Source: Rhodothermales bacterium (GTDB lineage: Bacteria; Bacteroidota; Rhodothermia; Rhodothermales; Bin80). From it: a DNA stretch of 64,000 nt. Both the position numbers and the translations under genes were made by a program. Positions 3,401-38,511 of the stretch are shown in pieces. The notes beneath the pieces are model-generated. The model was not told where the DNA came from. It did not search any database and saw only the letters and a program-made list of their open reading frames with translations. Every line of letters starts with the position of its first letter. The stretch's first letter is position 1. The stretch lies in the NCBI GenBank assembly GCA_965216255.1, contig OZ244148.1:838623-902622 (forward strand). The letters are read 5' to 3'.

Positions 3401-4025
3401 GGCAGACGACGATGGCATAGTCCCGATAACAGACGACGCGTGGTTTGAAGATGACGCGGCAAATCGCTTCATCAAATTCGTTGCAACTGCGTGGGACCCG
3501 GCGCATCTGGAAGAAAATCTCTCCTTCGTGGCAAAAAGCTTGTCGTCTACAAGAGCCGATTCCAGCCGCGATACACTCCGGCGCTACTTCGCCACTGGTT
3601 TCTACAAGGACCATCTCGCGACCTATAAGAAGCGCCCGATCTACTGGCTCTTTACCTGCGGCAGAGGAAGAGCCTTCCAATGTCTTGTTTACCTGCACCG
3701 CTATAACGAAGGCACGCTGGCGCGCATGCGCACCGAGTACGTAATTCCGCTGCAGGGCTTGATCGCATCCCGGATTCACCAATTGGGGCAAGACGTGAAC
3801 GCCACTACAATCAGGGCGCGCCGCCGGAGGCTGGATAAGGAGCGAGAGAAACTGTCGAGACAACAGGAAGAGCTTCGGACCTTTGACGAGAAGCTCCGCT
3901 ACTTCGCCGACATGCGCATTCGGCTTGACCTGGATGACGGCGTGAAGGTCAATTACGGAAAGTTCGGCGATTTGCTGTCTGACGTGAAGAGCGTAACAGG
4001 CAAGCGGCCAGAATCATGGAAGTAG
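420..4025 (+). CDS. pglX: BREX-1 adenine-specific DNA methyltransferase PglX
   Basis: 1201 aa. IPAATQLFTPNWIVKYLVQNSLG, SAM motif LDPAAGSGH, catalytic NPPY, C-terminal DLDDGVKVNYGKFGDLL. Confidence 0.95.
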   Translation: MNLSRLKSYAQKARRDFIRAVTERAAEYGLTEVGVEPLVLRGDIALIGDRKFPGTIVQPRRQLEDLIQRKGFGPVIEELAYTWFNRIVAIRYMELHDFLGHEMRVLSHPDGQEHPEILQRAHEVNLPGLDRNEVVELKLCGTRDEKLYRLLILAQCNALHRAMPFLFDPIGSGTELLLPRNLLRKDSLVYQLVHAIDESAWNEIEIVGWLYQFYISERKDEVIGKVVASEDIPAATQLFTPNWIVKYLVQNSLGAAWLATYPESGIAEVMDYYIAPAAQDEDVRAALASITPETLEPEELALLDPAAGSGHILVEAYDLFKVIYLERGYRRQEIPRLILEKNLFGLDIDQRAAQLASFALMMKAQSDDEELLSRGVTPNIVGFVNGTGLDVGHLSQGLPLSDYGLVQHDLLVLKELFLHATTFGSLIQVPKELAAKLPSLRRLCEATSRDSFVSNALRLLGHLVRQTELLARRYDVIAANPPYMASKYHGRHLRPFLKKHYKGYDRDLFSAFIDRSLALSRPHGRLGFMSPFVWMFISTHEHLRTRLIDLETLTSLVQLEYSGFDGATVPICTFILSKGHIARHKGCFIRLTDFRGSKNQGPKTLEAIRNRDCGWFFEAVPDSFHTIPGSPIAYWVSERFRDVFAIGTPLGELVEARQGLGTANNDLFLRRWWEVDIEKCGFGMSSREEALQSGKKWFPCNKGGPFRKWYGNQEYLINWQQDGRAIRAFGTEDGGRPRSVVRNPDYYFREALTWSLVTSGPTSFRLIDRGSIHDTAGHSAFSFSIVARSLLAGYCNTPIVKPIVGTLNPTLNFQIGDFVKLPFIQNTNDQLAHAVIRNVDVLSKIARRDWNASEHSWDFQSNSILGPSSNHHSTIESSYHVWIAENKDTVAETKRLEEENNRLFIETYGLTAELSPEVPIEEITLTVNPAYRYRRDRGLTESERWARFRRDTTAEIVSYAVGCMMGRYSLDEPGLAYTRSDGTGFDPHLYSSFPADDDGIVPITDDAWFEDDAANRFIKFVATAWDPAHLEENLSFVAKSLSSTRADSSRDTLRRYFATGFYKDHLATYKKRPIYWLFTCGRGRAFQCLVYLHRYNEGTLARMRTEYVIPLQGLIASRIHQLGQDVNATTIRARRRRLDKEREKLSRQQEELRTFDEKLRYFADMRIRLDLDDGVKVNYGKFGDLLSDVKSVTGKRPESWK

Positions 4026-6610
4026 CGCAAATCGCCTCCGACCTGAGGCGGGTCTTCGAACGGGAGTGCTGCCGGATTGTCTTCTGGGATGACCCGGAGG
4101 CGGACTTTAAGGAAGCCTGGCCGGATTTGGCGCTTGAAGGCGTGCAGATCATTAACCTGTGCGACATAAGTGCCTTGGAAGTCAAAGTGCATCTAGAACT
4201 GGAAGACGCTGCTAGCAAGTACCTCCTGTATTCGGCAGCAGAAGTGTCACGACATAGCGAAGACTGGCTGCGGGACATAAGGCTGTACAGCCAGAGCTTT
4301 CGGGCCGATCGGGCATCCATGATCCTGCGCGACCTTGGTCTTAGCGGGCCGAATGTACGCGAGCATATCAAACGATGCTTCAAGTTCTGCGCCAGCAAGG
4401 ACCGTCGCGCAAGGCTGAAACATTTCGTCGAGAGCAGTGACACCGAGAGCGACCTGGACAGAAAGATGCTCGCGGTGGCCTGCAAATCCGACCGAGCAGA
4501 AGCTTTCAGCATCGTTCGCATGCTAATGCACTCGATGGCCTCAGTCGAAGGCCTGGACCTGGTAGGCGTGCCCCCGGCATGGGAGCAAATAGAGCGATTC
4601 GGGCTGGATTCTGCGTTCTGGGAATTAATGCGGCGGCATTTCGGGTATGCAGCGGAAGAGCCCCGGTTCGCGGACCTCGTCTCCCGCATGCTAGTCTCCG
4701 ACTTTGGCCATCACCTAACGGGTACGCTGCCGGTGGAGCTGCATGGCCTACAGCTTCCGCCATCCGGCACCCAGAATGCGGTTGTGTTTCTAGCCCAGTG
4801 GAGAGACAGAAGTAGCAAGGCAAGCAGCTATAACTGGTGGGCTGAACAAGTATGTGGCCTCTTGCAAATGAACGACCGCTTGCGAGGCTACGAATTAGAA
4901 GACGTCCTCGGCATCACCACATTCGCGGGCGTGGACACGTTTGTCGTCGAGGAATTAGTTCAGCGTCTGCGAGCCGGCTCTTCAGCCGACGCTGTTGAAC
5001 GCATTATCGACCACCGGCGGCCCTGCCACTGGGTGTCTTCCGACTCGGTGCCGGACGAGCGACGGAAAGCCCGCTCGTCCGTGTACGAGGCACTCGCGGC
5101 GGCAGCACACCTGCTCGAACTGCGACGCACATACGAAAGCGGATTTGAATCTGGAGATGCAACATCGCTGTACAAGCAGTACGAGACCGAGCTGTTCCGT
5201 TTCGATCAGTTGTACCGACACTTTTGCGTGCATGCCGATGTGGCGGCCGCACGTGGCATCGATCTGCTCAAGCCTCTCCGCACGGAGATCGAGCAGTGCT
5301 ACGCCAACTGGTATCTCACAAACATCGCCCTTGCATGGAACCAACATGTGGACACTTGTCTTCCCGAGAGATGGGAATGCGGCCGGGCGCCACATCAGTA
5401 CCGCTTCTTCTTAGACAACGTTCAACCGTGGCTACGCAGCAGTCCCAACCGGCGCGCGTTCGTCATTGTCAGCGATGCACTGCGCTACGAAGTGGCCGAA
5501 GAATTGATGCGCGCGTTGAATCTGGCGCCAAGCCTCAATGCCGAATTGACATCCCAACTTGGCGTACTGCCGTCCTACACGGCGCTCGGCATGGCAAGTC
5601 TGCTTCCACACCGCAAGCTTTCCTATACCGCCAACGGCGAGGTCTTGCTTGATGGCAAGCCGTCGGCTTCGCTGGTACAGCGAAGCGAAATCCTAGGCTG
5701 CGTGGACGGCTTGGCAATTAGAGCCGAAGAGCTTCTTGCGCTTGGTCGGGAGCCGGCACGAAAGCGCGTCTCCGATGTACGCATACTTTACGTCTATCAC
5801 AACGAAATAGACGCCACGGGCGATTCGGCAAATACCGAATCGCATGCATTCGAGGCCGCAGGACGTGCCATTGAGGATCTGGAAAGATTGGTCAAGTATC
5901 TCGTTAACACGCTGAATGCCAACTATGTGGTTATAACGGCCGATCACGGGTTTCTGTTTACGTATTCCGCGCCCGAGCTACCGGACAAGAGCAGGATCGA
6001 TCGTAGGCCTGACGGCACCGTGGTCGCAAAGAAGCGGTATCTCCTAGGACAGGACCTTCCCGAATTCGAGCATGCCTGGCGCGGTGAAACGAAGGTAACG
6101 GCAAGGGCGTCAGGTGGCATGAAGTTTTGGATTCCGAAAGGCAACAACCGCTTTCATTTTTCCGGGGGCGCACGCTTCGTCCACGGCGGTGCCATGCTGC
6201 AGGAAGTCGTGGTGCCGATCATCAAGGTGAGGCGGAAGGCAGGGAAAAAGAATGGAGGAAAGGCCCATAGGCAGGTCGAGGTGCAGGTCATGGGCACCCG
6301 GCACCGCATCACCACGCCCCGGCACCGCTTCAATCTGCTCCAGATGGAACCGGTCAACCAGAGCACGCGGGAAGTTACGCTCAAGATCGCCGTGTACGAG
6401 GAAGAGCAGCCCGTCACGGATATTCAGACTGTGACATTTTCCAGTACGTCCCGCAACATGGAAGAGCGCCAGAAATCCGTTGTCCTGACGCTCCGCGATC
6501 AGCCCTACAGCAAGCGCACCTCGTACCGACTGGTGCTTCGCAATGCGCTGACGGGAATAAGACACGAGATACCGGTAATTGTTGACCGAGCCTTTAGCGA
6601 TGACTTCTGA
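4016..6610 (+). CDS. pglZ: BREX-1 PglZ alkaline-phosphatase-fold protein
   Basis: 864 aa. IVSDALRYE, LPSYTALGMASLLP, TADHGF and FVHGGAMLQEVVVP motifs; overlaps the pglX stop. Confidence 0.93.
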   Translation: MEVAQIASDLRRVFERECCRIVFWDDPEADFKEAWPDLALEGVQIINLCDISALEVKVHLELEDAASKYLLYSAAEVSRHSEDWLRDIRLYSQSFRADRASMILRDLGLSGPNVREHIKRCFKFCASKDRRARLKHFVESSDTESDLDRKMLAVACKSDRAEAFSIVRMLMHSMASVEGLDLVGVPPAWEQIERFGLDSAFWELMRRHFGYAAEEPRFADLVSRMLVSDFGHHLTGTLPVELHGLQLPPSGTQNAVVFLAQWRDRSSKASSYNWWAEQVCGLLQMNDRLRGYELEDVLGITTFAGVDTFVVEELVQRLRAGSSADAVERIIDHRRPCHWVSSDSVPDERRKARSSVYEALAAAAHLLELRRTYESGFESGDATSLYKQYETELFRFDQLYRHFCVHADVAAARGIDLLKPLRTEIEQCYANWYLTNIALAWNQHVDTCLPERWECGRAPHQYRFFLDNVQPWLRSSPNRRAFVIVSDALRYEVAEELMRALNLAPSLNAELTSQLGVLPSYTALGMASLLPHRKLSYTANGEVLLDGKPSASLVQRSEILGCVDGLAIRAEELLALGREPARKRVSDVRILYVYHNEIDATGDSANTESHAFEAAGRAIEDLERLVKYLVNTLNANYVVITADHGFLFTYSAPELPDKSRIDRRPDGTVVAKKRYLLGQDLPEFEHAWRGETKVTARASGGMKFWIPKGNNRFHFSGGARFVHGGAMLQEVVVPIIKVRRKAGKKNGGKAHRQVEVQVMGTRHRITTPRHRFNLLQMEPVNQSTREVTLKIAVYEEEQPVTDIQTVTFSSTSRNMEERQKSVVLTLRDQPYSKRTSYRLVLRNALTGIRHEIPVIVDRAFSDDF

Positions 6611-21051: not shown

Positions 21052-22560
<1,509 letters not shown>

Positions 22561-22782
22561 CTGGGGCAGGTGGTCAGATCCTAGCGCCCGGTGCCGGCGC
22601 CTTCGGGGCTTCTCCAGGAAGAATGGCCACAAGAATTACGGCTCGCCACATTGGTTCCGGAGACAAACGAACTTGATTTGATCCGCGTAGAGATTTGATA
22701 GCGCTAGACAATCCAGCATGCCGCTCTCACAAAGCGCGCCGGCTGGATCAAAATGCCCAAATCTGCGTGGAACCGGCCACTT

Positions 22783-32206: not shown

Positions 32207-33400
32207 TTATCTCCTGGACAGGACACTCTTCGCACTGCGAAGTCTGGCCTTGACTTTGTCCGGCTTGGTCGTACCTTCCTTCAACGCCTCTCGAAACGCT
32301 GGGTCTTGGTCAATAGCAGAAATGTCCTCAGCACGCAATGGCTTGACAGCCGCGGAGCCGTCAGCGAGTCGCGGCCGCAGTGCTTCCGCGAACACAACCT
32401 CGAAGAGGGGCACATTGAATCGGGAACGACCTTTCACCATGAAGACATCATCTGGCAAATCCGAACAGGCTTCCAAAAAATCAGAAAAGAGGCACTTCAC
32501 CTTATCGATCATATCAGGGCCGAAGTTGCGCTTGCAGTTTCCGGAAAACCGATTGAGAAACTTCACCATTGAGGGCCGATACTCATTGAGCCAGAGCAAA
32601 AGCGCGAATGAGCGGAGAAGAATTTCTACGTCCTTGAAGCGAACGTCAGGTTCTGGCCGGGGTAGCAGGCGGCGCCAACATGACCGCATGTTCAGCTTGA
32701 GCAGTAAGTCCAAGAACTCGGAGTTGTACAGACTCATCCTCAGTTCTTGAGCCGACAGATTTAAGCCCCCCGAGTTCAAACGGTTGAAAATTTCAAACAT
32801 CGAAGAGTGATCGTCTGTTGGCCTAACCTGCTTGATCACGACATTCCGTACGGTCCGAAGGTCCAGGGTTCGTTTCTCCTCCCCTAGTGTCGCGTACTTT
32901 TTCCCGTGGAACGGGCTTTGCGCGTTCGGTTCTCCGCCTAGTCCCTTTAGTGACAGCCGGAAATCAGAGAATAGGTCATCATTCTCGAGTATCGATTCAG
33001 CAAGTGAGCCACTTTCGTCGAACAGAGCCCTGATCTTGGCGCGCGCATTGCGATTTGGGAAACGCCCCTTAACAAAGTAATAGAGCGTCATGAGTCTCTG
33101 CTGACCATCAATCAGTAGTAGGGGATCTTTGTTGTGCTGGTAGAGAAACACTTGGGGAACGGGCAATCCGAGAAGTAGGGACTCAATTAGACGTGAGGAT
33201 CGAGCTAGATCCCAGACGAAGTTTCTCTGGAATCCAGGTATGCGAATAGAACCTGCGTCGATGAACGAGACGATGACAGCGACGTTGAAATCGTTAGGGA
33301 CTGCCGTGATGTCGTATTCGGGAATATAGCTGTCAGGCGCTGGTTCCTCCCCGTGGTCGCGCCATTCCTCTTCCGTGATTTCAGGATTTCTGCCAGCCAT
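32207..33400 (-). CDS. DUF262 (ParB-like/GmrSD N-terminal) domain protein
   Basis: IPGFQRNFVW, LIESLLLGLPVP, IDGQQRL and FNRLNSGG motifs. Confidence 0.9.
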   Translation of the reverse strand: MAGRNPEITEEEWRDHGEEPAPDSYIPEYDITAVPNDFNVAVIVSFIDAGSIRIPGFQRNFVWDLARSSRLIESLLLGLPVPQVFLYQHNKDPLLLIDGQQRLMTLYYFVKGRFPNRNARAKIRALFDESGSLAESILENDDLFSDFRLSLKGLGGEPNAQSPFHGKKYATLGEEKRTLDLRTVRNVVIKQVRPTDDHSSMFEIFNRLNSGGLNLSAQELRMSLYNSEFLDLLLKLNMRSCWRRLLPRPEPDVRFKDVEILLRSFALLLWLNEYRPSMVKFLNRFSGNCKRNFGPDMIDKVKCLFSDFLEACSDLPDDVFMVKGRSRFNVPLFEVVFAEALRPRLADGSAAVKPLRAEDISAIDQDPAFREALKEGTTKPDKVKARLRSAKSVLSRR

Positions 33401-34085: not shown

Positions 34086-34607
34086 GGTCACATGATATGG
34101 CAGGCCTGTTAGACAGGTGACGAAACGCAAGGTTCTGCGTTACATAAGCGCTCATTATGTGAGAAACTGTCATATCTTGGGTCTGTAGAATGCCGCGGCG
34201 TATCTTTGTGGAGTACCCATCAATCGCCCTAGACGGGCATATCCGGACTACATCGTATGACAGATCCAACAGAATCCAACGTACACTCACTCCTTACCCG
34301 TGAGGAGGCACTCAGCACTCTGGATGATCTGGTGCGCAGCTCCGCCCGGCGCATGCTTCAGGCAGCGCTCGAGCGGGAAGCCGACGACTACGTGAAGGCC
34401 CATGCACACCTGCGGAATGAGAACGGCCACCGAATGGTCAAACGCAATGGCCACCATCCGCAGAGAGAAATCCTCACGGGTGCGGGCCCGCTAGCGATCC
34501 AGCGGCCCCATATCCGTAACCCTCGAACAGATCTTATAGTAGGACTGCTCCGGCTGGGCGAGCTACATTAGCTCGTTCACCACATTCACCCAAACCGGAA
34601 CAGCCTC

Positions 34608-35747
34608 ATGCAAAGATACACTCCAACATTCACTTCGGCCTCCTCGCTGGTTGTCGGCATGGACGTGCACAAGAAGACCATTGCGCTTTGCGTGTACGAC
34701 GACAGCACGGGCGAGGTAATTGACGAGCGGCAGTTGCCGCACGACATGCCGAGAATCCGCAAGTATGTGCAGAAGTTACAGAGGCGCTACGGCGAGGTTC
34801 GTTGCTGCTACGAAGCGTCGTCCTGCGGATTCGGCCTGCAGCGTGCGCTGCAGGTGCAGGGCGTGCACTGCGACGTGATCGCCCCCTCATCCATTCCGCG
34901 TCGACCGGGCGAGCGTATCAAGACTGATCGACGGGATGCGATGAAGCTGGCCACGTTGTATGCCAAAGGGCTGCTGACGCCGGTGTGCGTACCGGAAGAG
35001 GAGCAGGAAGCAGCCCGGTCCCTTTTGCGCTGCCGCGCTGACTTGGTGGAGTCTATCACGCGCACCAAGCAGCGGATCCTGTCTTTCATTCAGACCCGGG
35101 GCTTTCGGTACACCGGTGCCACAAACTGGACGAAGGCCCATTGGAAGTGGATTCGTGCCTTGCCGGCAAGGGCGGTGGACCAGGTCACGCTGCAGACGTA
35201 TCTGCACAAGCTGACGTATCTGGAGCAGGAAGTGCACAGACTGGAACAGCAACTGGCAGAGGAGGCCGAAAAGGACCGCTACAGAGAGCCCGTGGGGGTG
35301 CTGATGGCCTTCCGGGGCATAGGCTTTGTGACGGCCATGACGCTGGTGTGCGAATTGGGAGACATCCGTCGCTTCGCGCATCCGCGGCAGTTAATGGCGT
35401 ATCTCGGCCTGGTGCCGAGCGAGTACAGCTCGGGCGATCACACGCAGCGCGGCTCCATCACAAAGACGGGCAACACGCATGTTCGCAAGGCGCTGGTGTC
35501 AACGGCATGGAAGTATGCAGCCCAACCGCGGTGCAGTAAAGTGCTACGCGAACGGCAGCAGGGCGTCTCGGCCGAGGTCGTTCTACTGGCATGGAAGGCC
35601 CAGTGCCGGCTGTACAAGAGATTCCGCAAACTGAGTCAGACGAAGTCGCGATGCGTGGCCAACACGGCGGTGGCGCGTGAACTGGCGGGCTTTCTCTGGG
35701 AGGCGTTGCGTATGCACACGGGCTCGCCGTTGCCGAAGGCCGCCTGA
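34608..35747 (+). CDS. IS110/IS1111 DEDD recombinase (transposase)
   Basis: RuvC-like GMDVHK, CYEAS, KTDRRDA; Tnp domain RRFAHPRQLMAYLGLVPSEYSSG and GSITKTGN. Confidence 0.95.
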   Translation: MQRYTPTFTSASSLVVGMDVHKKTIALCVYDDSTGEVIDERQLPHDMPRIRKYVQKLQRRYGEVRCCYEASSCGFGLQRALQVQGVHCDVIAPSSIPRRPGERIKTDRRDAMKLATLYAKGLLTPVCVPEEEQEAARSLLRCRADLVESITRTKQRILSFIQTRGFRYTGATNWTKAHWKWIRALPARAVDQVTLQTYLHKLTYLEQEVHRLEQQLAEEAEKDRYREPVGVLMAFRGIGFVTAMTLVCELGDIRRFAHPRQLMAYLGLVPSEYSSGDHTQRGSITKTGNTHVRKALVSTAWKYAAQPRCSKVLRERQQGVSAEVVLLAWKAQCRLYKRFRKLSQTKSRCVANTAVARELAGFLWEALRMHTGSPLPKAA

Positions 35748-36018
35748 CTCGTATCTTGTAACCAAAGAGAAATGGCCTATGGAGAAGTGATCGGGCACGG
35801 TAAGGAGAACCCACGATATGCCCTTGCGATAGCCAGCTCTCTTGCTGGTGAGTGCGCGTCAACAGATAGTGGCAGCTCCCGTCGAAACCGAAATCATGCG
35901 TTATGGTCCTTCGGGGCTTAGCACGCGAATACCAGATTGATTAGCCGTCGAAGCCGCCCGGTCGCTTCTCCAGAGGTCAAGCCAAACACTCTTCATGTAA
36001 TCTTCACTTGACATAGTA
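35748..36018 (+). ncRNA. Predicted bridge RNA/seekRNA of the IS1111-type element
   Basis: Contains TATGCCCT (reverse complement of target AGGGCATA), AACAG (target left plus core) and ATACCAGAT (donor circle junction), with intervening hairpins. Transcript limits are unknown. Confidence 0.7.
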
Positions 36019-36343
36019 TCCTACTATACCAGGGCATACCTTCACCAGCGCCATACTGCCGCGCTATATGCGCCGCAGTCCGTCGATAGATGCACTCATT
36101 CCGGCTTTGTACCTGCGGGGAGTTTCGACCAACGACTTTCCTATGGCCCTGGAGGCCATACTCGGGCCGCAAGCTGGCAACCTATCGCCATCGTCGATCA
36201 GCCGACTCAAGGGGGCTTGGCTAGAGGAATACCGGCAATGGAACAAGCGGGACTTGACGGGCAAGCGGTATGTTTACCTCTGGGCTGACGGGCTGTACTT
36301 CAATGTCCGCATGGGAAACGAGCGCCCGTGTCTGCTGGTTATT

Positions 36344-37781
36344 CGGAAGTTCCCCCCAAAATCAAGGCGATACAGAGTGTTCTGCAGGTATTAATCTCGG
36401 CGTAAGTAGTGTATGAATAAGCAGTTGCAGATAAGTCCTGCGCCACATTCGTCCGTAATAGGTCCAAATTATGATTCCCATGTAATTGACTCTGTCTTCA
36501 TCCAGTCTTCACAGTTATTCCGGACTCATAGTTGACGTTATAACACCTATTTACCCATCTTTATATCTGCGGCTATTCCTAGATCATCTTTCTAATAAAG
36601 TACCCATGTATGTCGCCACCGTCCCCAACCGCGGTGCCCGCCCCACCTACCTCATCCGCCAAGGCAAACGCCATGGCCGCAAAGTCGTCAAAACCACCCT
36701 CGCCAATATCTCCAAACTCCCCGATGATATCATCGACTACATCCGCATCCTCCTGCGCGGGGGCATCGCCGTCGATAACCCACAGTACGCCTTCCAACAC
36801 TCCTTCCGCTTCACCAAAGGTATCCCCCATGGAAACGTCGCCGCCGTACTCGGCTGCCTCCGTGACCTGAAGCTCCACAGCATCATCGCAACCAAAGATT
36901 CCAAACAGCGACGCCTCGCCATCGCCCTTATCGCTGCCCGTATCCTTGATCCCAAAAGCAAACTCGCCACCAGCGCAGCCCTGCACCCGGACACCGCCAC
37001 CCATTCGCTCGGTACCGAACTCGGTCTCGAAAACATTGACGAGGACACCTCTACCAGACCATGGATTGGCTGCTGAAGCGCAAAAGCACCATCGAAGAGC
37101 GCCTCGCTCGCCAGCACCTCGAGGAGGGCTCTCTCGTCCTTTGCGATGTTACCTCCACTTACGTCGAAGGCGAAGCCCTCGAGCTGGCCGAGTATGGCTA
37201 CTCCCGGGACAAGAAAAAGGGCAAGAAACAGATCGTCTTCGGCCTACTCACCGGCAAAGACGGCTGCCCCGTGGCCGTGGAAGTCTTTGCAGGCAATACG
37301 GCCGATCCCAACACGCTGGCTCCGCAGATTGCCAAGATCCAGCAACAATTCGGCCTCCGGCGCATCGTGCTCGTAGGAGACCGCGGCCTGCTTACCGAGG
37401 CCCGCATACGCAAAGAGGTCAAACCCGCCAGGACTGGATATCCGCCCTCAGGAAGAGCGGCATCCGCAAAATAGTGGAAACGGAAGCCCTGCAACTGTCC
37501 CTGTTCGACGAACAAGGCTTCGCGGAGATCACCACCGCCGTCTACCCGGGGGAGCGGATCGTCCTGTGCCGCAACCCGCTACGGGCCAGGGCGTCGGCGT
37601 ATAACCGCGAAAGACGGCTGGCAAAGACCGAAGAGGCGCTGGAGAAGATCGTAGTGGCCACCCGGCGCGAGGTAATCCCCTGCGTAGCATGAAGGCGATC
37701 AGCTTTCGTGTAGGGAAGGTCATCGGCAAGTGGAAGATGGAAAAGCATTTTGATCTGGATATTAAGGAAGGCTTCTTTAGC
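36344..37781 (+). pseudogene. IS1634-family element remnant (transposase from 36606, at least 3 frameshifts, truncated by IS66)
   Basis: MYVATVPNRGARPTYLIRQGKR..TLANISKLP, LCDVTSTYVEG, YGYSRDKKKGKKQIVFGLL, VGDRGLLT and ERIVLCRNP. The left boundary is approximate. Confidence 0.85.
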
Positions 37782-37867
37782 GTAAGCGTGCGGTGAAACC
37801 CATCTGGATAAGGTGACGATTTCTCGGGAGATTACTCATAGCCCCGAGGACTCAAAGCCTGGATGGC

Positions 37868-38167
37868 ATGAGACAGCCCAGACGTACGGCGGAAGAAATG
37901 TTTCCGCTGGTGGAACAGTATGAAGAAAGCAGCCAGACCGCTGCAGCGTTCTGTGCCGAGCGCGGCATCTCGTATGGGCAGCTGTTTTACTGGCGTCGGA
38001 AGTATCGCCTGGAGGCTGCGGCAGTGGACAGCGGCGCCTTTGTGGAGATTGGCAGACCCACGGCAGGTGAAGAGGCGCAAGTGGAGATCATGTACCCGGG
38101 CGGGATACGCGTGCGCCTCTTGGCGCCGGTATCTGCCTCGTACCTGGCGCAGCTGGTGCAGTCATGA
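37868..38167 (+). CDS. tnpA: IS66 TnpA
   Basis: Near-identical to 30906-31205. Confidence 0.88.
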   Translation: MRQPRRTAEEMFPLVEQYEESSQTAAAFCAERGISYGQLFYWRRKYRLEAAAVDSGAFVEIGRPTAGEEAQVEIMYPGGIRVRLLAPVSASYLAQLVQS

Positions 38168-38511
38168 TCGGACTGGGGCCTTCGCACCGGTATTTCTTTT
38201 ACCGGCCGCCGGCCGACATGCGCAAGAGCTTTGACGGTCTGTGCGCCTTGGTGAAAAGCGGCATGAAGCGGGATCCCATGTCGGGGGACGTCTTTGTGTT
38301 CGTCAACAGGAGGCGGAGCCATCTGAAGGCGCTTTCGTGGGACCGAAACGGCTTCGCCTTGTTTTACAAAAGGCTTGAAGCGGGTACGTTTGAGCTGCCG
38401 AAAGAGGATATGCCGACGTGGACGCAGATGGTGATGTTACTGGAGGGAGTGTCGCTGAAGTCCGTAAAATACCGGCGCCGGTATGCGGTTAAGAGCCGGG
38501 AATCGGGATAA
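38164..38511 (+). CDS. tnpB: IS66 TnpB
   Basis: DMRKSFDGL motif. Confidence 0.93.
   Translation: MIGLGPSHRYFFYRPPADMRKSFDGLCALVKSGMKRDPMSGDVFVFVNRRRSHLKALSWDRNGFALFYKRLEAGTFELPKEDMPTWTQMVMLLEGVSLKSVKYRRRYAVKSRESG

What the first reader, a model, noticed from the sequence alone, without database searches (positions are those of the whole stretch)
34528..36032. IS1111-type element with a readable bridge/seekRNA whose guides match its own target and donor
The element inserted without a TSD at a CAG core. The empty target is CCCTCGAA-CAG-GGCATACC (in frame in the IS256 gene) and the circle junction would be CTACTATAC-CAG-ATCTTATAG. The 270-nt region downstream of the DEDD recombinase contains, in order: TATGCCCT (35817-35824, exact reverse complement of target AGGGCATA); hairpin GCCAGC-TCTCTT-GCTGGT; TCAACAG (35859-35865; AACAG equals target left plus core); a UUCG hairpin (35905-35918); and ATACCAGAT (35929-35937, exact 9-nt donor junction). 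This is the guide-hairpin-guide layout described for IS110 bridge RNAs and IS1111 seekRNAs, on the 3' side as expected for IS1111. It is a naturally programmed, apparently intact RNA-guided recombinase with a 3-nt core. The imperfect left guide predicts a preferred target near GTCAACAGGGCATA, with this site being a tolerated near-match. I could not identify the second donor guide.
Basis: partly seen in the sequence, partly recalled or inferred. Interest (0 to 1): 0.85.

Follow-up and report, generated by a model that had tools for sequence, protein, structure and literature searches.

The report
RNA-guided IS110/IS1111-type insertion sequence
This is an apparently intact 1.5-kb insertion sequence of the already known bridge-RNA/seekRNA kind, whose own non-coding RNA spells out both the site it landed in and its own ends; it is a well-documented but ordinary new member of that family.

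Summary
The element (34531-36032) is an IS110-family insertion sequence with the IS1111 layout. It has a 379-aa DEDD/Ser recombinase, a 285-nt 3' non-coding region, 10-bp subterminal inverted repeats and no target duplication, and it sits precisely inside an IS256-family transposase gene.

A covariance model built from relatives finds the same ~200-nt Y-shaped RNA 3' of the recombinase gene in about 130 loci. 45 of its 60 base pairs show compensatory changes. Across 43 distinct guide pairs the flanks match the two target guides far above permutation (4.93/6 vs 1.99; 3.26/5 vs 2.01; 0 of 10,000 permutations each).

Close copies show natural retargeting. A 96.7%-identical copy differs at three bases of the left guide, and two of those changes match its different left flank. 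An 88.6%-identical copy keeps the window's left guide, sits at CAAC-AG, and has a new right guide matching its new right flank.

- The core is AG, the reverse complement of the IS621 CT core, not CAG.
- The AU after AACAG matches the IS left end, like a handshake guide.
- The missing second donor guide is GAAAUC (35890-35895).

Verdict: interpretation supported; new member of a known kind; modest interest.

The parts
34257..34530 (+). 5' part of the interrupted IS256-family (Transposase_mut) gene. It includes the left target half CGAAC (34524-34528) and the AG core copy (34529-34530).
   Evidence: Joining 34257-34530 to 36033-36394 gives one open frame that matches PF00872 across the junction.
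34531..36032 (+). The insertion sequence, 1502 bp counting one AG core copy (equivalently 34529-36030).
   Evidence: Homology to relatives begins at 34531 and ends at ...CTATACC-AG.
34531..34534 (+). Left terminal extension ATCT. AT (34531-34532) is the partner of the target-loop handshake dinucleotide. G34530 plus ATCTT is the partner of the 5' donor guide.
34535..34544 (+). Left subterminal inverted repeat TATAGTAGGA.
   Evidence: Exact 10-bp inverted repeat with 36019-36028; 12 bp in relatives L001-L003.
34608..35747 (+). Recombinase gene, 379 aa. Carries D19, E69, D107, D110 and S275-G276 within the motif GLVPSEYSSG.
   Evidence: PF01548 and PF02371. NCBIfam NF033542 'IS110 family RNA-guided transposase', 266 bits against a cutoff of 140. 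The Ser motif aligns to the IS621 segment ..GLTPRRYESG... Motif positions.
35775..35977 (+). Bridge/seek RNA core. A long closing helix (35775-35801 with 35944-35977) encloses two arms.
   Evidence: MFE fold z = -2.5. Consensus fold. Covariance-model hit of 198.7 bits. 45 of 60 pairs show double changes and 87.7% of cells are paired, against about 40% for slid controls.
35817..35824 (+). Target loop, 5' strand: guide UAUGCCCU. It pairs with the top strand AG|GGCATA (core plus right flank 36033-36038).
   Evidence: 8/8 complementary. This position varies among relatives and tracks their right flanks.
35825..35858 (+). Apical stem-loop of the target arm: UGCG/CGCG stem plus hairpin GCCAGC-UCUCUU-GCUGGU.
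   Evidence: Helices 5 and 6 have compensatory changes in 3/4 and 5/5 pairs.
35859..35865 (+). Target loop, 3' strand: guide UCAACAG. AAC-AG pairs with the bottom strand of the left flank gAAC plus the core. C35860 is mismatched here. U35859 could form a wobble.
   Evidence: L073 carries UUCAGAG with flank gCAG-AG. L168 carries the same guide as the window with flank gCAAC-AG.
35866..35867 (+). AU, a handshake-guide-like dinucleotide. It equals the first two bases of the IS left end and does not match the cognate target.
   Evidence: Same position and logic as IS621 positions 81-82 (PMC11208158). These positions are unpaired in the wider family (pairs 46-110 and 47-109). The second base tracks the left end in most lineages.
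35890..35896 (+). Donor loop, 5' strand: GAAAUC(A). It pairs with the top strand G|ATCTT of the left end as C-G, U-A, A-T, A·C mismatch, A-T, G·T wobble. A35896 faces the core A.
   Evidence: Position-by-position covariation with left ends across families (ATCTTA, ACATAA, ACCGTA, ATATCA and others).
35897..35927 (+). Apical stem-loop of the donor arm: UGCG/CGCG stem plus the UUCG-capped hairpin 35905-35918.
   Evidence: Helices 9 and 10.
35928..35937 (+). Donor loop, 3' strand: AAUACCAGAU. AUACC-AG equals the right end plus the core. AU equals the left-end start, so the 9-nt match spans the circle junction.
   Evidence: The loop reads ...ACC-AG...ATC-AG or ...AAG-AG in step with the right ends of three families.
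36019..36028 (+). Right subterminal inverted repeat TCCTACTATA.
36029..36032 (+). Right terminal CC plus the AG core copy.
36033..36345 (+). 3' continuation of the interrupted IS256-family gene. The right target half GGCATA is at 36033-36038. The gene is truncated after about 36345.
   Evidence: only profile positions 10-176 of 379 are present.

Best explanation
The region is a 1,502-bp IS110-family insertion sequence with the IS1111 layout. It inserted by RNA-guided site-specific recombination into an IS256-family transposase gene.

It encodes a 379-aa DEDD/Ser recombinase. Downstream lies a ~200-nt non-coding RNA that folds as a Y: one long closing helix and two arms, each with an internal loop.

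Target loop:
- The 5' strand UAUGCCCU pairs with the top strand of AG|GGCATA.
- The 3' strand (UC)AACAG pairs with the bottom strand of (cg)AAC|AG.
- The next two bases, AU, can pair with the incoming IS left end after strand exchange (handshake).

Donor loop:
- The 3' strand AAUACC-AG(-AU) pairs with the bottom strand of the right end across the circle junction.
- The 5' strand GAAAUC pairs imperfectly with the top strand G|ATCTT of the left end.

Recombination between the circularised element and the target takes place at a shared AG (CT on the other strand) dinucleotide, so no bases are duplicated.

What is shown here: the anatomy, the complementarities, the conservation and covariation of the RNA structure, guide-flank covariation, and natural retargeting among near-identical copies.

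What is inferred from IS621 and ISEc11: expression and processing of the RNA, RNP formation, the circular intermediate, and the order of strand exchange.
For: Protein: PF01548 and PF02371; NF033542 'IS110 family RNA-guided transposase' at 266 bits; the Ser motif aligns to IS621; DEDD motifs are present.

Precise insertion: it restores an IS256-family reading frame.

RNA: covariance model R1 finds one hit 3' of the recombinase gene in about 130 loci from Rhodothermales, Desulfobacterales-type and Alphaproteobacteria contigs. 45 of 60 pairs have compensatory changes, with 0 of 500 shuffles reaching the observed values. Slid controls are about 40% paired against 87.7% observed.

Guide-flank covariation used boundaries set from the donor-loop match plus the inverted repeats, not from the target guides. 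Over 43 distinct guide pairs the right flank scores 4.93/6 (null 1.99) and the left flank 3.26/5 (null 2.01). None of 10,000 permutations reached either value. The same holds inside the single ACATAA family, n = 31.

Natural retargeting:
- L073-type copies are 96.7% identical in DNA. They differ in the RNA at only 5 positions, 3 of them in the left guide (35860, 35861, 35863). Two of these match the changed flank: AAC-AG becomes CAG-AG.
- L168 keeps the window's left guide, sits at CAAC-AG, and has a new right guide AACUAC-CU at AG-GTAGT.
- L166 has both guides changed and both flanks follow.

Donor guides covary with the ends across families.

The layout (top-strand match 5' of bottom-strand match, with overlap at the core) is the one reported for IS1111 seekRNAs (PMC11187229).
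Against: There is no expression or activity data for this copy.

No sigma-70-type promoter is formed at the predicted circle junction, and no intrinsic terminator follows the RNA. How the RNA is made is therefore unknown.

The left target guide makes only 3 bp plus the core with this site.

The 5' donor guide is weak (4 Watson-Crick pairs plus 1 wobble), and it can alternatively pair within the RNA (helix 8, AAUCA/UGAUU, which itself has compensatory changes).

By IS621 rules the donor-loop dinucleotide AU, which pairs with its own donor, should hinder insertion (PMC11208158).

Rfam has no matching family. Model R1 does not detect the IS5075 non-coding region.

Many of the L073-type copies share at least 340 bp of left flank and at least 180 bp of right flank. 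They may be copies of one nested insertion rather than independent events.
Confidence: 0.85

Rival explanations
1. Only the target loop acts as a guide (the minimal seekRNA model). The ends of the element are recognised by the protein through the subterminal inverted repeats. The donor-loop complementarity would then be structural or regulatory rather than a donor guide.
For: For ISEc11 the 82-nt short seekRNA alone supported transposition, and better than the 154-nt long form (PMC11187229). The 5' donor strand here is only weakly complementary to the left end, and it can pair within the RNA in helix 8.
Against: The donor-loop 3' strand changes in step with the right end in three families (ACC, ATC, AAG before AG). 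The 5' strand changes in step with the left end at positions +2 to +4. The two-loop arrangement mirrors IS621, where both loops are guides (PMC11208158).
Confidence: 0.12
2. The copy is a structurally intact but inactive relic. The anatomy is that of an RNA-guided IS, but this particular copy no longer moves.
For: It is the only copy in the 64-kb window. It sits in a cluster of broken IS fragments. Its left guide mismatches its own flank at position -4. Its donor-loop AU pairs with its own donor. No junction promoter was found.
Against: The reading frame is full length with all catalytic motifs. The RNA differs from that of multicopy 96.7%-identical relatives at only 5 positions, 3 of them in a guide. 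The same right-end structure is shared with those multicopy relatives.
Confidence: 0.2
3. The complementarities are chance matches in a protein-guided IS, and the non-coding region is only an end-binding or terminator region.
For: In this sequence alone an 8-nt junction-touching target match arises in 5.6% of shuffles.
Against: The joint target-plus-donor match arises in 0.04% of shuffles. Guide-flank covariation over 43 guide pairs was reached by 0 of 10,000 permutations. Compensatory changes occur in near-identical copies. No terminator is present.
Confidence: 0.02
4. The core is the trinucleotide CAG.
For: In this copy CAG is present at both junctions. The same holds for L001, L044 and L065.
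Against: Left junctions of relatives read TAG (L002-L006 and others), GAG (L073 family) or TGAG (L166), while their right ends read ACC-AG. In the RNA only CU (5' guide) and AG (3' guide) are invariant. The base opposite position -3 in the 5' strand is U, which cannot pair with C.
Confidence: 0.05

Closest known systems
IS1111-group seekRNA elements (ISEc11, ISPa11, ISKpn4; Siddiquee et al. 2024, PMC11187229)
   Same: DEDD transposase followed by a long 3' non-coding region. Subterminal inverted repeats. No target duplication. A target loop whose 5' strand matches the top strand and whose 3' strand matches the bottom strand, with the two matches overlapping at the insertion point. Natural retargeting by guide replacement between close relatives, as for ISEc11 and ISXne4.
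   Different: The transposase is 379 aa, against 330-350 aa typical of IS1111 members, and is only 25% identical to IS5075. My covariance model does not detect the IS5075 non-coding region. Here a second, donor-matching loop is clearly present and covaries with the ends, whereas the seekRNA paper found the short target-only RNA sufficient.
IS621 bridge RNA (IS110 group; Durrant et al. 2024, PMC11208160; Hiraizumi et al. 2024, PMC11208158)
   Same: Two internal loops, each with two guides pairing to opposite strands. A dinucleotide core: AG here is CT on the other strand. A 2-nt AU handshake guide after the core-pairing bases of the target loop that matches the donor. The donor guide that stops one base short of the core. 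An imperfect natural donor guide.
   Different: The RNA lies 3' of the gene and is effectively inverted relative to the ends. The two arms are enclosed by one ~27-bp closing helix rather than arranged in series. The inverted repeats are long (10-12 bp). The donor-loop dinucleotide (AU) pairs with its own donor instead of the target. The proteins align only over the C-terminal domain (E 1e-11).
ISEc21 (targets a conserved codon block of IS3-family transposase genes) and IS4321/IS5075 (target the ends of Tn21-family transposons)
   Same: An IS110-family element found inserted in another mobile element.
   Different: There is no evidence here that IS256 genes are the preferred target. Relatives with the same guides sit in unrelated sequences. 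A near-cognate site in a carboxypeptidase gene in the window is unoccupied.

Membership tests
IS110 family (RNA-guided DEDD recombinase elements) | Transposase with an N-terminal DEDD RuvC-like domain and a C-terminal Transposase_20 domain | tested here: met
   PF01548 (E 1.9e-21) and PF02371 (E 7.7e-23). NF033542 at 266 bits against a cutoff of 140.
IS110 family (RNA-guided DEDD recombinase elements) | Catalytic D-E-D-D residues and the Ser of the G(L)-P----SG motif | tested here: met
   D19 (MDVHK), E69 (YEAS), D107 and D110 (KTDRRDA), S275-G276 (GLVPSEYSSG). The Ser motif aligns with the IS621 segment GLTPRRYESG. DEDD assignment rests on motif inspection, not on a structure.
IS110 family (RNA-guided DEDD recombinase elements) | Precise insertion without target-site duplication at a short core shared by donor and target | tested here: met
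   Removing 34531-36032 restores a continuous IS256-family frame. Only AG is shared at both junctions across relatives.
IS110 family (RNA-guided DEDD recombinase elements) | Structured non-coding RNA with a target loop and a donor loop whose guides covary with flanks and ends | tested here: met
   Structure covariation. Target guides against flanks, (0 of 10,000 permutations). Donor guides against ends. Compensatory changes in close copies.
IS110 family (RNA-guided DEDD recombinase elements) | RNA expressed, bound by the recombinase and required for transposition; circular intermediate | not testable with these tools
   No transcriptome or assay is available. No sigma-70 junction promoter was found.
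IS1111 group | Subterminal inverted repeats of about 7-17 bp | tested here: met
   TATAGTAGGA at 34535-34544 and TCCTACTATA at 36019-36028, 10 bp; 12 bp in L001-L003.
IS1111 group | The longer non-coding region and the guide RNA lie downstream of the transposase gene | tested here: met
   77 nt upstream against 285 nt downstream. The RNA hit is at 35775-35987.
IS1111 group | The top-strand target match lies 5' of the bottom-strand match in the RNA | tested here: met
   35817-35824 (complementary to the top strand) precedes 35861-35865 (identical to the top strand). Rule taken from PMC11187229.
IS1111 group | Transposase related over its full length to IS1111-type transposases, clustering with them, with a length of 330-350 aa | tested here: inconclusive
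   25% identity to IS5075 over residues 69-364, E 3e-17. The length is 379 aa. No tree against ISfinder references could be built.
IS1111 group | Terminal extension outside the left repeat (7 bp in ISEc11) | tested here: inconclusive
   Here 4 nt (ATCT) separate the core from the left repeat. That is 6 nt counting AG, and 7 only if the flank C is counted.
Rfam RNA families | Match to a curated covariance model | tested here: not met
   No relevant hit at E <= 10 over 34400-36200.

The most novel reading that the evidence does not exclude
This deep-branching clade spans Rhodothermales, Desulfobacterales-type and Alphaproteobacteria contigs, with transposases about 25% identical to IS5075. It may represent a distinct bridge-RNA architecture with different directionality rules.

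Three features support this reading:
- Both arms are enclosed by one long helix.
- The core A is always left unpaired (A·A) in the donor loop.
- In the window's sub-clade the donor-loop 'handshake' dinucleotide (AU) pairs with its own donor rather than with the target.

By the IS621 rule (pairs before against pairs after top-strand exchange) the count here is 2 before and 2 after. That would make insertion and excision balanced rather than biased toward insertion, i.e. a naturally more reversible bridge recombinase.
Probability: 0.15. Interest if true: 0.5.

Novelty: new member of a known kind. Interest (0 to 1): 0.3.

Why it matters
It gives a fully annotated natural example of an IS1111-layout bridge RNA with all four guides and a handshake dinucleotide assigned to the base.

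It also provides a comparative set of about 130 loci and 43 guide pairs, in which target specificity is visibly reprogrammed between copies 84-97% identical. One copy swaps only the left guide, one only the right, one both.

This is useful as a worked case for annotation pipelines and as a candidate compact recombinase from a thermophile-related lineage.

It does not change what is known about the mechanism. Bridge/seek RNAs were predicted in 93% of ISfinder IS1111 elements in 2024 (PMC11208160), and millions of such loci have since been mined (PMC13604230).

Tried and rejected
- Rfam scan of the element: only two chance-level hits inside the coding region.
- Search for a second copy or an empty IS256 site in the window: none.
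- Exact-protein look-ups of the window's transposase and of P0002 and P0127, which come from a 5.4-Mb genome that holds many copies: not on record. I could not collect more insertion sites of the exact window variant.
- Covariance model R1 on the IS5075 non-coding region: nothing. No direct RNA-level link to canonical IS1111 members.
- Sigma-70 promoter at the reconstructed circle junction: the best candidate is TTGACA-18-GATCTT, which lacks the key -10 bases. Nothing passed the tool's scan, and there is no intrinsic terminator. The host may use non-sigma-70-type promoters.
- First automatic inverted-repeat search for boundaries: too noisy. I replaced it with donor-loop-anchored boundaries.
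- CAG as a 3-nt core: rejected.
- Treating the 10+ L073-type copies as independent insertions: rejected, because they share long flanks.
Full report
OBSERVATION.
- TATGCCCT at 35817-35824.
- Hairpin GCCAGC/UCUCUU/GCUGGU at 35832-35849.
- TCAACAG at 35859-35865.
- A UUCG-capped hairpin at 35905-35918.
- ATACCAGAT at 35929-35937.

The left junction reads ...CCCTCGAAC-AG|ATCTTATAGTAGGA. The right junction reads TCCTACTATACC-AG|GGCATACC.

Deleting 34531-36032 gives one open frame that matches Pfam Transposase_mut (IS256 family) continuously across the joint. The insertion is therefore precise and has no duplication.

In this sequence alone, shuffling the non-coding region gives a junction-touching target match of at least 8 nt in 5.6% of trials. 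It gives a donor match of at least 9 nt in 1.2%, and both together in 0.04%.

WHAT IT ENCODES. ORF 34608-35747 (379 aa) has the DEDD_Tnp_IS110 and Transposase_20 domains. It scores 266 bits on NCBIfam NF033542 'IS110 family RNA-guided transposase'.

The motifs for D19, E69, D107/D110 and S275-G276 (GLVPSEYSSG) are present. The Ser motif aligns with the IS621 chain in the PDB.

Ten-bp subterminal inverted repeats lie at 34535-34544 and 36019-36028. The upstream non-coding part is 77 nt and the downstream part is 285 nt.

THE RNA. The downstream region folds with a long closing helix and two arms (z = -2.5). Relatives 65-69% identical in protein, from Rhodothermales MAGs, were found by scanning genomes. 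They align through this region, with the stems conserved and the loop strands variable.

A covariance model built from seven of them finds exactly one strong hit, always 3' of the recombinase gene. It does so in about 130 loci from genome and metagenome scans: Rhodothermales, a large Desulfobacterales-type group and Alphaproteobacteria.

On 65 distinct sequences, 87.7% of cells are paired, against 37-44% when partners are slid. 45 of 60 pairs show changes on both sides, and none of 500 shuffles reach the observed values. That alignment was fitted to the model, which favours the structure. The size of the effect and the slid controls still make the fold secure. Rfam has no matching family.

GUIDES AND FLANKS. 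I set element boundaries without using the target guides. The right end was located by the donor-loop hexamer. The left end was located by the inverted repeat at a fixed 4-nt offset. This worked for 96 loci.

The predicted right flank is the reverse complement of the 6 nt 5' of the invariant CU in the 5' strand of the target loop. The predicted left flank is the 5 nt 5' of the invariant AG in the 3' strand.

Over 43 distinct guide pairs, the right flank matches at 4.93 of 6 positions (permutation mean 1.99). The left flank matches at 3.26 of 5 (permutation mean 2.01). None of 10,000 permutations reached either value. The same holds within one family that shares identical ends (n = 31).

The window's element scores 6/6 on the right (8/8 with the core) and 3/5 on the left.

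NATURAL RETARGETING IN CLOSE COPIES. A metagenome (ERZ25067264) holds many copies whose element is 96.7% identical. Inside the RNA they differ from the window at only five positions. Three of these are 35860, 35861 and 35863, which lie in the left target guide: UCAACAG becomes UUCAGAG. Their left flank is gCAG-AG instead of gAAC-AG. Two of the three guide changes are therefore matched by the flank. The right guide and the right flank (AG-GGCATA) are unchanged.

L168 (88.6% identical) keeps the window's left guide and sits at gCAAC-AG, a 4/4 match. L168's right guide is AACUAC-CU and its right flank is AG-GTAGT.

L166 (83.9% identical) has both guides changed, and both flanks follow.

One caveat applies. 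Most of the 96.7% copies share at least 340 bp of left flank and at least 180 bp of right flank. They may descend from one nested insertion. L080 is an independent, imperfect site.

CORE. In relatives the base before AG at the left junction is T, C or G. The right end is always ...ACC-AG. In the RNA only CU and AG are invariant. The shared core is therefore AG, which is CT on the other strand, as in IS621 (PMC11208158). It is not CAG.

HANDSHAKE AND DONOR LOOP. If the element is read on the strand where the core is CT, the layout becomes that of IS621. The 5' strand of each loop pairs with the bottom strand of the left half. The 3' strand pairs with the top strand of the right half plus the core, followed by a 2-nt handshake guide.

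Here the two bases after AACAG are AU. They equal the first two bases of the IS left end (AT) and mismatch the cognate target. In the wider family these positions are not paired within the RNA. The second base follows the left end in most lineages.

The donor-loop 3' strand AAUACC-AG equals the right end plus the core. It reads ...AUC-AG and ...AAG-AG in families whose right ends are ...ATC and ...AAG.

It pairs with G|ATCTT as C-G, U-A, A-T, A·C, A-T, G·T. The same position reads CAUGAC, UACGGAC, AAUAUC and so on in families whose left ends are ACATAA, ACCGTA and ATATCA.

In all families the base facing the core A is A, which cannot pair. The strand can also pair within the RNA (helix 8), so a switch between RNA-RNA and RNA-DNA pairing is possible.

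In the window's sub-clade the donor-loop dinucleotide is AU, which pairs with its own donor. In IS621 such pairing lowers insertion and favours excision. Whether that rule transfers to this clade is unknown.

COMPARISON WITH KNOWN SYSTEMS. The order of matches (top-strand match 5' of bottom-strand match), the 3' position of the RNA, the subterminal repeats and the absence of a duplication are the features reported for IS1111-type seekRNA elements (PMC11187229).

The two-loop logic, the dinucleotide core and the handshake are those of the IS621 bridge RNA.

The transposase is only 25% identical to IS5075. It is longer than the 330-350 aa quoted for IS1111 members. My RNA model does not detect the IS5075 non-coding region. 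Membership by layout is therefore met, while phylogenetic membership in the IS1111 group remains untested.

UNRESOLVED. No sigma-70-type promoter is formed at the predicted circle junction, and no terminator follows the RNA. Expression, processing and activity of this copy are all inferred.

VERDICT. This is a new member of a known kind. The natural guide swaps are a neat illustration rather than a new principle. Interest 0.3.

Noticed in passing
L005:3931-5399 (- strand element; RNA hit 3987-4190) and L044:5594-5797 (-): A second, different IS of the same clade sits inside the right subterminal repeat of the first IS (GAGTCCTA|CT|ATACCAG). Its guides read GUCCUA-CU and GUAU-AG. They match AG-TAGGAC and GGTAT-AG, which is the end of its sister element. 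So this is an IS programmed to target the inverted repeats of a relative.
   Followed up: partly
L017-L043, L147-L163 (Alphaproteobacteria loci): Relatives with guides UCAUCCU and (A/U)CCUC-AG are all inserted at ...(A/T)CCTC-AG|GATGA(G/C)G... inside palindromic, REP-like repeats (TCGAAGGATG...CATCCTTCGAG). Many copies occur per genome.
   Followed up: partly
L073-L083, L164, L165 (metagenome ERZ25067264): The 96.7%-identical copies lie in a repeated unit of at least 2.1 kb, with the same flanks for at least 340 bp left and 180-370 bp right. They are next to recurrent 182-aa and 77-aa ORFs and sometimes group II intron reverse transcriptases. The target is probably another multicopy element.
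   Followed up: partly
window 21733-21744 (- strand): An unoccupied near-cognate site, GAAC-AG-GGCATT, lies within a 526-aa ORF (21052-22632, -) that carries an HEAGH motif (M32 carboxypeptidase-like by eye). It has the same left half as the occupied site and 5/6 of the right half.
   Followed up: no
window 36345-38200: The interrupted IS256-family gene is itself truncated near 36345; only profile positions 10-176 of 379 are present. It is followed by further transposase fragments: DDE_Tnp_1 at 37061-37471 and HTH_Tnp_1 at 37868-38164. The region is a pile-up of nested or broken insertion sequences.
   Followed up: partly
window 32207-33400 (- strand): A 397-aa ORF with a GmrSD_N domain (a DUF262-type restriction endonuclease N-terminal domain) lies just upstream of the IS cluster.
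   Followed up: no
window 36007-36018 vs L001:3870-3917: The window's sub-clade lacks about 30 nt that the 67-69% relatives carry between the RNA and the right inverted repeat. The repeat is 10 bp rather than 12 bp.
   Followed up: no
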